From: Escherichia coli
GTDB taxonomy: Bacteria; Pseudomonadota; Gammaproteobacteria; Enterobacterales; Enterobacteriaceae
Direction: 5' to 3' (one strand)
DNA length: 64,000 nt
NCBI RefSeq assembly: GCF_002854065.1
Contig: NZ_CP024147.1
Below are positions 38,601 through 41,600 of this stretch, in pieces. How positions within the stretch are numbered: position 1 is the stretch's first letter; each line of letters opens with the position of its first letter. Made by a program: the position numbers.

Positions 38601-41600
38601 CGGCGGTCACGTCTATTTTGCAAAAACCAAAGAAGACGCTACCCGCTACATTTTACAGGTTGCCCAACGCAAAAATGCCCGGAAGGTGGTGAAATCTAAA
38701 TCGATGGTGACCGAAGAGATTGGTGTCAATCATGTGTTGCAGGATGCTGGCATTCAGGTGATTGAAACCGATCTGGGTGAATATATTCTCCAGCTGGATC
38801 AAGATCCGCCATCTCATGTTGTGGTCCCGGCAATTCATAAAGATCGCCATCAGATCCGTCGAGTGCTACACGAACGTCTGGGCTATGAGGGGTCGGAAAC
38901 GCCTGAAGCAATGACCTTATTCATCCGGCAAAAAATCCGCGAAGATTTCCTCAGTGCTGAAATAGGTATTACCGGCTGTAATTTCGCGGTGGCAGAGACC
39001 GGTTCGGTATGCCTGGTGACCAATGAAGGTAATGCGCGAATGTGTACCACGCTGCCTAAAACGCATATTGCAGTGATGGGAATGGAGCGTATTGCCCCCA
39101 CGTTTGCCGAGGTAGATGTATTGATCACCATGCTGGCGCGCAGTGCCGTTGGTGCACGTTTGACGGGATACAACACCTGGCTGACAGGACCGCGCGAAGC
39201 GGGGCACGTTGATGGTCCTGAAGAGTTTCATCTGGTTATTGTCGATAACGGGCGTTCTGAGGTGCTGGCCTCTGAATTTCGGGATGTGCTGCGCTGTATT
39301 CGCTGCGGGGCTTGTATGAATACTTGTCCGGCATATCGCCATATTGGCGGTCATGGATATGGCTCTATTTATCCAGGGCCAATTGGTGCGGTGATTTCTC
39401 CGCTACTTGGCGGCTATAAAGATTTTAAAGATTTACCCTACGCCTGCTCTTTATGCACAGCTTGTGACAACGTGTGTCCAGTGCGTATTCCGCTGTCAAA
39501 ACTGATTTTGCGTCATCGTCGGGTGATGGCTGAAAAAGGGATCACCGCAAAAGCAGAGCAACGGGCGATAAAAATGTTCGCTTATGCCAATAGTCATCCA
39601 GGATTGTGGAAAGTCGGGATGATGGCCGGCGCTCATGCGGCAAGCTGGTTTATCAATGGCGGCAAAACACCACTCAAATTTGGCGCGATTAGCGACTGGA
39701 TGGAAGCACGCGATCTTCCTGAAGCTGACGGAGAGAGTTTCCGTAGTTGGTTTAAGAAACATCAGGCGCAGGAGAAAAAGAATGGATAATCGAGGCGAAT
39801 TTTTGAATAACGTTGCTCAGGCACTGGGTCGCCCGCTGCGACTTGAACCGCAAGCAGAAGATGCGCCGCTTAACAACTATGCTAACGAGCGGCTTACCGA
39901 ACTTAACCAACAGCAGCGCTGTGACGCGTTTATTCAGTTTGCCAGCGATGTTATGTTGACGCGCTGTGAACTGACCAGCGAGGCGAAGGCGGCAGAAGCT
40001 GCAATACGACTGTGTAAAGAGCTGGGAGATCAGTCGGTCGTGATTAGCGGTGACACGAGGCTGGAGGAATTAGGGATTAGCGAACGTTTGCAGCAGGAAT
40101 GCAATGCCGTTGTTTGGGATCCGGCGAAAGGTGCCGAGAATATCTCGCAGGCAGAGCAGGCTAAAGTGGGTGTCGTGTATGCTGACTATGGTTTAACCGA
40201 ATCGGGAGGCGTGGTTCTTTTTTCCGCCGCCGAGCGCGGGCGTTCATTGAGCCTGCTCCCGGAATCATCTCTTTTTATCCTGCGTAAAAGCACAATCCTG
40301 CCGCGTGTAGCGCAACTCGCAGAAAAATTGCATCAGAAAGCGCAGGCCGGTGAACGAATGCCGTCATGTATTAACATCATCAGTGGTCCCAGCTCAACGG
40401 CGGACATTGAGCTTATCAAAGTCGTCGGGGTTCATGGTCCGGTGAAAGCGGTGTATCTGATTATTGAGGATTGCTGAGAGAGGTATGAAGTCTGGACATA
40501 AACCTGAAGGCGGCATACGAGGTTTGAATAGCGTTAAGGGCAACCTGACTTAACCCCGTTCCGTCATGGTTATGCTCCTCTTCTGTAAATATCCTGGCAT
40601 TACTAATGCCAGGATATTTACAGTGAAAAAGACAGGCATCCATTCCTGAAAACGGGTTCCCTTCCCGGTCATTGTCACTTCAGCTTTATACAGGCACTCT
40701 CTATCAGAATGCTGTTTATTACTGCCCAGAGTTTTGTTGGTATTCATCTACCATTTTTTTAACAAGGCAAAACATTACAGAAATTACAATGCTTAGAAAA
40801 AATCCCAGAGCCAGGCAAATGGCAGCAGGGTATTTATTTTTTATTTCTGGTGAGCTTATAGTTACACAGCCATCACCGTTCGGATACAATGACCAGTTCC
40901 TGGTCAGGTATATCATTTTTGTATAAAGCTCACTGTTAATTGCTGAAGGCGTTTGTATCTCATCGAGAACTTGCCTGCCATTATGGTATTCTGACGCATA
41001 CCATTTGATAATAGACGCCTGCACGCGAGATATTTCCGCTTCAGCAGTTGGTAAATCTCTCTTATCTCCTGACCATTCCAGCTTTATTTCTCTGTTCTTG
41101 ACATCTGGGCTGGTGTGAAAAAATGTAGTAATTCGCTGAATAACATCTTCAGTCATTGTGGTCTGACAGGCAAAGTTATTATTGCTATCACAGTTAACAA
41201 GTATGCCTGGCGTTGTCTGGTTTATTTTTAGGCTGTAACTCACTTTTATATTATCTTTATTGATATACAGAAACAACAGCACCATAGCCATACAGATAGC
41301 CATAATAAAAAGGATAACACGAATCTTTTTCTTCAGATAAAATAAAATCTCAATCAGATCGATATCCTGTTTGATTTGTTCATTCATAATATATCCAGAA
41401 AATAAAACCTGTCGCAGATAAGGTTGTATTAATAGTCTGTATCAGGAATGTTCGGGGTAAATATCAGCAAAAAACCAGCATCATGAATACTGGATATGAA
41501 GCATGAGAGTTACCCCTATGTTTTATATAACGATTCTGTCCCCATACCTGGAACGGTAACTCTCAATCTGATCGGTTCCTGAGTCAGTTCAAATCACGAC

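What the first reader, a model, noticed from the sequence alone, without database searches (positions are those of the whole stretch)
40583..40623. Perfect 20-bp inverted repeat between convergent ykgG and ykgH
Seen: a 41-bp palindrome with a single-base centre, far longer and more perfect than a typical intrinsic terminator stem and lacking a flanking U-tract. It could form a cruciform or very stable RNA hairpin, or be a protein-binding site or small repeat element.
Basis: seen in the sequence. Interest (0 to 1): 0.35.

Follow-up and report, generated by a model that had tools for sequence, protein, structure and literature searches.

The report
Lone perfect hairpin beside ykgH terminator
A real, perfect 41-bp palindrome sits between two converging E. 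coli genes, but published RNA-end mapping shows it is not itself a terminator: the ykgH transcript ends 2 nt before it, so it is most likely a modest, lineage-specific hairpin that only affects read-through RNA, or a harmless leftover.

Summary
Window 40583-40623 is a perfect 20+1+20 palindrome (about 6e-7 expected by chance in 64 kb) between convergent ykgG/lutC and ykgH. It is single-copy, with no family in E. coli genomes, plasmids, phages, viral or metagenome collections, and no Rfam match. It belongs to a ~1 kb low-GC islet (ykgH plus spacer, ~40487-41499) that is absent from other Escherichia species and Citrobacter. It occurs in 5141 of 5426 complete E. coli genomes but is perfect in only about 34%; K-12 and B2 lineages carry uncompensated apical substitutions.

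Published K-12 Term-seq places a strong minus-strand 3' end at a U-tract 2 nt upstream of the palindrome (window 40626). That is the end of the RIL-seq "ykgH 3'UTR" Hfq-associated RNA. No plus-strand 3' end is reported in the spacer, and plus-strand transcription is stopped by Rho about 300 nt further on. So it is neither an intrinsic nor a bidirectional terminator, a repeat element, nor a demonstrated protein site.

Best reading (about 0.4): an RNA hairpin that forms only in read-through transcripts, just past the ykgH terminator, and limits or destabilises them. The main rival (about 0.3) is a functionless relic of the acquired islet. Interest is low to moderate.

The parts
40583..40623 (.). 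Perfect 41-bp palindrome (20-nt arms, centre C at 40603). It contains two CCWGG (Dcm) sites, at 40593-40597 and 40609-40613.
40597..40609 (.). Apical 13 nt holding all natural polymorphism: 40597 G/A (B2 type), 40598 C/T and 40604 T/C (K-12 type), 40603 C/G/A. None of the changes is compensated.
40626..40632 (-). U-tract UCUUUUU. Its last U (40626) corresponds to MG1655 324603, the Term-seq 3' end of the ykgH transcript and 3'UTR RNA, 2 nt upstream of the palindrome.
   Evidence: Adams 2021, PMC7815308, Supplementary file 1; read counts 43,492 in LB 0.4 and 126,276 in LB 2.0; listed three times, consistent with all three condition sheets
40633..40667 (-). Two small GC stems preceding the U-tract: CAGG-AAUGGAUG-CCUG at 40648-40633 and CGGG-AAGGGAA-CCCG at 40667-40653. 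The last 45 nt fold to -10.3 kcal/mol. This is a weak terminator-like module.
   Evidence: the stems are unchanged in B2 variants
40626..40718 (-). ykgH 3'UTR (93 nt), the RIL-seq 'ykgH.EST3UTR' putative Hfq-associated sRNA. The published northern probes map to 40637-40675.
40719..41387 (-). ykgH, a 222-aa membrane-type orphan restricted to E. coli, with a weak Wzz-like N-terminus.
39782..40477 (+). ykgG/lutC, the last gene of ykgEFG (lutABC). Homology to other species ends at its stop codon.
40487..41499 (.). E. coli-specific low-GC islet (~1013 bp, 31-41% GC) carrying ykgH, its 3'UTR and the palindrome. The empty site is seen in E. whittamii.

Best explanation
The palindrome is a single-copy structured element that arrived with the ykgH islet. 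It lies in the shared downstream region of convergent ykgG and ykgH, immediately distal to the real ykgH 3' end. It is not the terminator. Mature ykgH and ykgH-3'UTR RNA ends at the UCUUUUU run 2 nt before it, so the 20-bp hairpin forms only in transcripts that read through from either side. In those RNAs it is proposed to act as a read-through barrier or insulator. It would make a long duplex that pauses RNA polymerase and gives Rho time to act, buries the upstream U-tract so that read-through RNA lacks a free Hfq-binding tail, and offers a double-stranded target of 20 bp or more for RNase III. The effect would be to limit antisense transcription into the opposite gene. Shown: the anatomy, uniqueness, lineage restriction, position of the 3' end, and Rho-dependent read-through on both strands. 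Inferred: pausing, U-tract sequestration, RNase III sensitivity, and any fitness effect.
For: A perfect palindrome of this length is not a chance event. A strong minus-strand Term-seq 3' end lies 2 nt from its edge, and such adjacency is unlikely by chance in a 241-nt spacer. A minus-strand Rho-termination region peaks at MG1655 324578, which is window 40601, inside the palindrome; the read-through fraction rises from 16/160 to 199/572 with bicyclomycin. Read-through RNA is C>G downstream of the palindrome in both directions (67 C to 56 G on the plus strand; 54 C to 35 G on the minus strand), which is rut-like. The predicted read-through fold pairs UCUUUUUC with GAAGAGGA around the core, for -57.6 kcal/mol in total. 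The outer 14 bp of both arms are invariant (0/28) against 29/200 variable sites in the rest of the spacer, in 7 unbiased haplotypes (binomial about 0.012, post hoc). Every natural variant keeps a core hairpin of -20.6 kcal/mol or stronger. The analogy is to REP elements, which act as partly Rho-dependent terminators and stabilisers in 3'UTRs, and to the stem-loops needed to position convergent RNAP collisions.
Against: There is no direct evidence that the hairpin changes anything. No Term-seq 3' end lies just after the hairpin on either strand, so it does not visibly stabilise an RNA end. On the plus strand, Rho-dependent termination peaks about 310 nt past it, and coverage beyond it exceeds upstream coverage in bicyclomycin (260 vs 172), so it does not stop plus-strand transcription. 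About two-thirds of E. coli genomes carry uncompensated mismatches, and the palindrome as a whole (4/41 variable) is no more conserved than the spacer. Pairing beyond the 41-bp core is not statistically supported. All transcript data come from K-12, which has the imperfect variant, not from this strain. The Rho scores use 800-nt windows, so the 'peak inside the palindrome' is a coarse localisation.
Confidence: 0.4

Rival explanations
1. Functionless relic. The palindrome was made once, either in the unknown AT-rich donor or by a template-switch inverted duplication. It was carried in with the ykgH islet and is now drifting.
For: It is confined to a young, E. coli-only, low-GC islet with an orphan gene. 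It is perfect in only about 34% of genomes, with uncompensated transitions in the K-12 (1874 records) and B2 (1000 records) lineages. Overall variability equals that of the spacer. It lies outside the mature RNA, and no 3' end can be attributed to it. It has sharp edges with no significant flanking symmetry, as an inverted duplication would give. The centre base is C, G or A, and C<->G is what a loop inversion would produce.
Against: Outer arms are invariant at 0/28 (P about 0.012). It sits within 2 nt of a major RNA 3' end and coincides with a Rho-dependent region. It is retained in 95% of genomes despite IS activity at the locus.
Confidence: 0.3
2. Processing determinant for the ykgH 3'UTR sRNA. 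Transcription runs through the palindrome, the long hairpin is cut (for example by RNase III), and the stub is trimmed back to the Hfq-protected U-tract, creating the 3' end at 40626.
For: The hairpin upstream of the U-tract is weak (4-bp stems, -10.3 kcal/mol). End formation is partly Rho-dependent, which implies that transcription passes the U-tract. No stable end is seen after the strong hairpin, as expected if hairpin-containing RNA is destroyed. Hfq association is shown by RIL-seq. A perfect 20-bp duplex meets the size RNase III needs (established knowledge).
Against: There are no RNase III data for this site; the datasets were not held as text or were gene-level only. The geometry of small hairpin, 7-nt U-rich run, then 3' end fits ordinary intrinsic termination. 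The sequence at the end does not resemble an RNase E site (inference).
Confidence: 0.12
3. DNA-level site: an operator or roadblock for a dimeric protein, or a cruciform, that stalls RNA polymerase.
For: The site has perfect dyad symmetry. The minus-strand 3' end is about 13 nt from the edge of the central 21 bp, a plausible roadblock distance (inference). An RNAP sigma-E holoenzyme genomic-SELEX peak maps to the ykgG/ykgH spacer at about MG1655 324608.
Against: Variation is concentrated in the central bases that a dimer would contact. No symmetric plus-strand stall or 3' end is seen. It does not match the LexA, sigma-54, IHF or LldR/PdhR motifs (sequence inspection), and LldR gSELEX has no ykg site. 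Convergent transcription generates positive supercoiling, which disfavours cruciform extrusion (established knowledge). SELEX-chip resolution is low.
Confidence: 0.08
4. Classical intrinsic or bidirectional terminator, or a 3'-end-protecting hairpin, for ykgEFG and/or ykgH mRNA.
For: It has the position expected between convergent genes and forms a very stable hairpin.
Against: Neither strand has a U-tract after the stem, and the terminator scan finds none. The flanks are arranged the wrong way round: U-rich before the stem and purine-rich after it. No Term-seq end follows the stem on either strand. Plus-strand transcription continues to a Rho-dependent region about 310 nt downstream.
Confidence: 0.07
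5. Remnant of a mobile element: abutted terminal inverted repeats, a MITE, or an integron attC.
For: It lies within horizontally acquired DNA. The one-ORF-plus-palindrome layout superficially resembles a gene cassette.
Against: It is single-copy everywhere searched. There is no larger quasi-palindrome. It has no attC core sites and lies 96 bp from the islet edge. No transposase is associated with it.
Confidence: 0.03

Closest known systems
REP/BIME extragenic palindromes of E. coli
   Same: Extragenic hairpin-forming palindrome of about 40 nt in a 3'UTR between genes. REPs are reported to act as partly Rho-dependent terminators and mRNA stabilisers, and they vary between strains.
   Different: This element is single-copy rather than present in hundreds of copies, AT-rich (35% GC arms) rather than GC-rich, perfect rather than mismatched, and unrelated to REPs in sequence. 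No stabilised 3' end is observed.
Bidirectional intrinsic terminators between convergent genes (SEnd-seq; RNAP-collision model)
   Same: A single stem-loop placed between convergent genes and transcribed from both sides. A stem-loop is needed to position convergent RNAP collisions.
   Different: It lacks the A-tract/stem/U-tract arrangement. The mapped minus-strand end lies before the stem rather than after it, so the convergent 3' ends do not overlap across the hairpin.
Hfq-dependent 3'UTR-derived sRNAs with Rho-independent terminators
   Same: The adjacent ykgH 3'UTR RNA is Hfq-associated in RIL-seq and ends in a U-run.
   Different: The palindrome lies outside the mature RNA, and the actual terminator hairpin is small and weak. 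Two northern probes failed to detect the RNA.
RNase III hairpin substrates in mRNA untranslated regions
   Same: A perfect intramolecular duplex of 20 bp or more is predicted on both strands.
   Different: Cleavage at this site has not been demonstrated, and no dataset could be queried.

Membership tests
Intrinsic (Rho-independent) terminator | U-rich tract within about 8 nt after the stem | tested here: not met
   After the stem the plus strand reads UGAAAAAGA and the minus strand reads AAGAGGAG. The terminator scan found 0 sites.
Intrinsic (Rho-independent) terminator | Short GC-rich stem (about 5-14 bp) | tested here: not met
   The stem is 20 bp with 7/20 G+C per arm.
Intrinsic (Rho-independent) terminator | RNA 3' end mapped a few nt after the stem | tested here: not met
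   K-12 Term-seq has no plus-strand end in the spacer, and the minus-strand end (324603, window 40626) lies 2 nt BEFORE the stem. The data are from K-12, not this strain.
Bidirectional terminator | A-tract upstream and U-tract downstream, so that both strands read stem followed by U-tract | tested here: not met
   The arrangement is inverted: pyrimidine/U-rich before the stem and purine/A-rich after it on both strands.
REP/BIME | Multi-copy dispersed family with a GC-rich consensus | tested here: not met
   There is one locus per genome across 5141 genomes (the 2 places per genome are the two strands of the same site). There is no second copy in the window.
MITE / IS terminal repeats | Multiple copies, terminal inverted repeats flanking internal sequence, and a target-site duplication | tested here: not met
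   No solo arms or other copies were found in E. coli, plasmids, phages, viral or metagenome collections; the 13 extra metagenome 19-mer hits lack an inverted partner. Flanking symmetry is not significant.
Integron attC | Imperfect palindrome with R''/R' core sites (RYYYAAC/GTTRRRY) at the cassette 3' boundary | tested here: not met
   The palindrome is perfect, has no core sites by inspection, and lies 96 bp inside the islet edge.
Rfam RNA families | Score at or above the gathering threshold | tested here: not met
   Only spurious miRNA-precursor hits, far below threshold (26.7 vs 95 bits).
GntR-type (LldR/PdhR) operator | Match to AAnTGGTCnGACCAnTT and binding in gSELEX | tested here: not met
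   The window form lacks TGGT/ACCA. The K-12 form matches about 9/14 positions. LldR gSELEX lists no ykg site.
RNase III substrate | About 20 bp or more of continuous dsRNA | tested here: met
   The predicted hairpin has 19-20 bp on both strands at -27.8 kcal/mol. This is a prediction only.
RNase III substrate | rnc-dependent cleavage in vivo | not testable with these tools
   Supplements were not held or were gene-level only.
Hfq-dependent 3'UTR sRNA (as part of it) | The element lies within the mature Hfq-bound RNA | tested here: not met
   The mature 3' end at 40626 precedes the palindrome. The RIL-seq region is the 100 nt after the ykgH stop.

The most novel reading that the evidence does not exclude
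The palindrome is required to make, or to gate, the Hfq-associated ykgH 3'UTR RNA. Read-through transcripts fold into the long hairpin, are cut (for example by RNase III) and are trimmed to the U-tract. The sRNA 3' end would then be generated by hairpin-directed processing rather than by termination, and strain-specific apical substitutions (perfect, K-12 or B2 forms) would tune sRNA output.
Probability: 0.12. Interest if true: 0.6.

Novelty: new member of a known kind. Interest (0 to 1): 0.28.

Why it matters
If functional, it would be a clean single-copy natural example of a U-tract-less hairpin that shapes read-through between convergent genes. It sits right next to a candidate 3'UTR sRNA, and its natural allelic series (perfect, K-12 and B2 forms) makes it easy to test. 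If it is a relic, it is still useful in three ways. It marks the edge anatomy of a small E. coli-specific islet. It shows that a striking palindrome next to a transcript end need not be the terminator. And it is a practical hazard, because assemblies break or form chimeras at it.

Tried and rejected
- **Repeat family.** Searches of the window, 5426 E. coli genomes (including at a relaxed E-value for solo arms), plasmids, phages, viral contigs and metagenome contigs found only the one locus. Plasmid hits are F' plasmids or mislabelled chromosomes. The 13 extra metagenome hits are chance 19-mers.
- **Rfam.** Only sub-threshold miRNA artefacts.
- **Larger MITE or attC-like quasi-palindrome.** Flank symmetry is not significant (31/500 and 198/2000 shuffles score as well), although RNAfold does pair the flanks.
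- **Orthologous loci for covariation.** The element is absent outside E. coli, so no deep comparison is possible.
- **'Divergent' YkgH alleles.** L113 and L114 are a G>A-converted library (109/135 substitutions). L115-L117 are ordinary loci with frameshifts or IS insertions.
- **'Alternative junction' 10 nt from the palindrome (L089, L103).** These are chimeric assemblies; L089 begins with the Illumina P7 adapter and continues into a Firmicute-type transketolase/glycerol-kinase locus.
- **GntR/LldR box created by the K-12 substitutions.** About 9/14 match and no gSELEX site.
- **Sigma-54-like GG-N10-GC, LexA-like CTGT...ACAG ends, IHF-like and DnaA-like strings.** Rejected on spacing or score by inspection only.
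- **RNase III and further 3'-end datasets.** Altuvia 2018 and Dar & Sorek 2018 have no supplements held, Ju 2019 is not held, and the p19 study has gene-level tables only.
- **Promoter scan.** Nothing inside the palindrome.
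Full report
**Observation**

Window 40583-40623 reads CTGTAAATATCCTGGCATTA-C-TAATGCCAGGATATTTACAG. 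The arms are 20 nt and 100% complementary, around a single central C at 40603. It lies in the 241-bp spacer between the stop codons of ykgG/lutC (+, 40475-40477) and ykgH (-, 40719-40721). Both genes were identified by ORFs and by annotated E. coli genomes. About 6e-7 such repeats are expected by chance in 64 kb, and no shuffle of the window reproduces it. It is the only long perfect hairpin-type repeat in the window.

**Uniqueness**

The arm occurs only at this site in the window. BLAST of 47-61-nt queries against 5426 complete E. coli genomes finds one locus per genome; the "2 places" per genome are the two strands of the palindrome. This holds even at E-value 10, which would reveal solo arms. 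The 13 plasmid records that match are F' plasmids or chromosome-sized "plasmids" carrying the same region. No phage carries it. An exact scan for the universally conserved 19-mer arm found nothing in viral contigs. In metagenome contigs it found 31 stretches: 18 are this same E. coli locus and 13 are chance matches in unrelated contexts with no inverted partner. Rfam gives only far-sub-threshold miRNA-precursor artefacts. It is therefore not a repeat element or a known RNA family.

**Evolutionary setting**

Orthologous ykgG loci from 73 species were fetched. The palindrome and the whole spacer are absent from the three other Escherichia lineages recovered and from Citrobacter; homology stops at the ykgG stop codon. 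In E. whittamii, ykgG directly abuts the betA-proximal sequence. That defines an E. coli insert of about 1013 bp (window ~40487-41499) containing ykgH, its 3'UTR and the palindrome. The insert is 31-41% GC against 50-60% in the flanks. YkgH has homologues only in E. coli and only weak Wzz-like similarity. The palindrome therefore came in with a small acquired islet.

**Variation within E. coli**

5141 of 5426 genomes carry the locus. Exact-match counts of the four main forms, out of about 5144 records, are below.

| Form | Core sequence | Records |
|---|---|---|
| K-12 type | CCTGGTATTACCAATGCCAGG, two uncompensated changes | 1874 |
| Centre-G, perfect | - | 1401 |
| B2 type | CCTGACATTAATAATGCCAGG, one uncompensated change, centre A | 1000 |
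| Window type, centre-C, perfect | - | 352 |

- Only about 34% of genomes have a perfect palindrome.
- In some searches my query carried three wrong leading bases, so the alignments covered 44 nt (the palindrome plus 3 nt). The exact-match counts are unaffected.
- All four variable positions (40597, 40598, 40603, 40604) are apical.
- In seven haplotypes chosen without reference to the arm sequence, the outer 14 bp of both arms are invariant (0/28), against 29/200 variable sites in the rest of the spacer. The binomial P is about 0.012, from a post-hoc partition.
- The palindrome as a whole (4/41 variable) does not differ from the spacer.
- No compensatory change is seen.
- Every variant keeps a strong hairpin:

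| Form | + strand (kcal/mol) | - strand (kcal/mol) |
|---|---|---|
| Perfect | -27.8 | -27.8 |
| K-12 | -25.8 | -21.1 |
| B2 | -20.6 | -25.1 |

**Transcript evidence from the literature (K-12 only)**

- RIL-seq identified the "ykgH 3'UTR" as a putative Hfq-associated 3'UTR-derived sRNA with a shared target motif (PMC5145812).
- A follow-up study scored it highly. It could not be detected with two northern probes, which map to window 40637-40675, but RNA-seq reads were seen to accumulate there (PMC8175672).
- Term-seq (PMC7815308, Supplementary file 1) lists a strong "orphan" minus-strand 3' end at MG1655 324603. Read counts are 43,492 in LB 0.4 and 126,276 in LB 2.0, and the coordinate appears three times in the file, consistent with all three condition sheets. 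The flanking sequence is ...GGATGCCTGTCTTTTT|CACTGTAAAT.
- I mapped MG1655 to the window (offset -283,977). The end is window 40626, the last U of UCUUUUU, 2 nt upstream of the palindrome on the ykgH strand.
- No plus-strand 3' end is listed in the spacer.
- The same paper's bicyclomycin data give a minus-strand Rho-dependent region peaking at 324578, which is window 40601, inside the palindrome. Downstream/upstream coverage is 16/160 without bicyclomycin and 199/572 with it.
- They also give a plus-strand Rho-dependent region peaking at 324913, which is window 40936, antisense to ykgH. Coverage there is 36/160 without and 260/172 with bicyclomycin.
- These scores use 800-nt windows and are therefore coarse.

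**What follows from this**

The hairpin is not an intrinsic or bidirectional terminator.
- It has no U-run after the stem on either strand.
- Its flanks are arranged the wrong way round, U-rich before the stem and purine-rich after it.
- No 3' end follows it on either strand.
- Plus-strand transcription passes it and is stopped by Rho further on.

The real ykgH 3' end uses the U-tract preceded by two small 4-bp GC stems; the last 45 nt fold to -10.3 kcal/mol. Those stems are untouched by the B2 substitutions. The palindrome therefore forms only in read-through RNA. In the predicted read-through fold, the U-tract pairs with the purine run beyond the palindrome, giving -57.6 kcal/mol in this strain and -46.2 in K-12. 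However, symmetry beyond the 41-bp core is not statistically significant, so I do not claim a larger element. RNA downstream of the palindrome is C-rich relative to G in both read-through directions, which is compatible with Rho loading.

**Best explanation (confidence about 0.4)**

The palindrome is an RNA-level read-through barrier or insulator placed just beyond a weak terminator. It would pause polymerase for Rho, sequester the Hfq-binding tail in read-through RNA, and provide a double-stranded target for RNase III. The functional analogy is to REP elements, which act as partly Rho-dependent terminators and stabilisers, and to the stem-loops that position convergent polymerase collisions. 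It is not a member of either group.

**Rivals**

| Rival | Confidence | Basis |
|---|---|---|
| Functionless relic of the islet or of a template-switch inverted duplication | about 0.3 | Supported by the uncompensated decay in two-thirds of genomes, the sharp edges and the triallelic centre |
| Processing determinant that creates the sRNA 3' end | about 0.12 | - |
| DNA-level protein site or cruciform | about 0.08 | A sigma-E holoenzyme SELEX peak maps nearby, but the variation is central and no motif fits; LldR gSELEX is negative |
| Classical terminator or stabiliser | about 0.07 | - |
| Mobile-element remnant | about 0.03 | - |

**Dead ends**

- RNase III and additional 3'-end datasets could not be queried.
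- Apparently divergent YkgH alleles turned out to be a G>A-converted library or broken genes.
- An apparent alternative junction next to the palindrome is an adapter-seeded chimeric assembly.

**Verdict**

The palindrome is real, unique and lineage-specific, and it has not been described in its own right. Existing data already exclude the most obvious function (terminator) and the repeat-element idea. What remains is either a modest read-through or decay element, or a relic. It is a new example of a known kind of feature (a 3'-region hairpin between convergent genes), of low to moderate interest. Its value lies mainly in its adjacency to a candidate Hfq sRNA and in a ready-made natural allelic series for testing.

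Noticed in passing
window 40626-40718 (- strand): The ykgH 3'UTR is a published RIL-seq candidate Hfq sRNA that failed northern validation, yet Term-seq shows an abundant discrete 3' end at 40626 (126,276 reads in stationary phase). Its terminator-like hairpin is unusually weak (4-bp stems). The RNA may deserve re-testing with probes placed closer to the 3' end.
   Followed up: partly
window 40603: The centre base of the palindrome is triallelic across E. coli: C in the window and K-12 types, G in 1401 records, A in the B2 type. A C<->G change at the centre is exactly what inversion of the hairpin loop by intrastrand template switching would produce.
   Followed up: no
window 40503-40523: The spacer contains GAAGGCGGCATACGAGGT, a 16/18 match to the Illumina P7 adapter (GAAGACGGCATACGAGAT). 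One metagenome contig (L089) starts with the true P7 sequence fused at this point. This is a likely seed for chimeric assemblies or trimming artefacts at this locus.
   Followed up: partly
L007 (E. coli RM9088) 445-501; L116 2745-3973: IS activity at the locus. An IS1 is inserted inside the right arm of the palindrome (after GGATAT) in strain RM9088, removing the distal arm end and ykgH-side sequence from that position. An IS3-family element interrupts ykgH in another strain.
   Followed up: no
window 40485-40491 and ~41494-41500: The heptamer TATGAAG occurs at both edges of the ~1 kb ykgH islet, while the E. whittamii empty site (GGAGTA|GCATGAG) lacks it. It may be a short direct repeat left by the insertion event, or chance.
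   Followed up: no
L001 (E. coli A16) 4112-6357: In some strains an adhesin pseudogene, hyxA and hyxR lie between ykgH and betA, whereas in this window and in K-12 ykgH abuts betA. The acquired region next to ykgH therefore varies in size among strains.
   Followed up: no
L113, L114 (Logan SRR27475577/8): Contigs that produced a '79% identical YkgH' protein cluster come from a G>A-converted (bisulfite or deaminase-type) library: 109 of 135 differences are G>A. Both contigs break inside the palindrome. Such pseudo-divergent proteins contaminate the protein database.
   Followed up: yes
window 41504-41565: An 11-bp perfect inverted repeat (TGAGAGTTACC / GGTAACTCTCA, 40-nt loop) downstream of betA is conserved in E. 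whittamii, where it directly follows ykgG. It is possibly the ancestral shared terminator region of the ykgG/betA convergent pair.
   Followed up: no
window ~40631 (MG1655 ~324608): Genomic SELEX with RNAP sigma-E holoenzyme reported a weak peak (5.6) in the convergent ykgG/ykgH spacer. After converting coordinates from U00096.2 to U00096.3, it falls at the U-tract and palindrome. Its meaning is unknown.
   Followed up: partly
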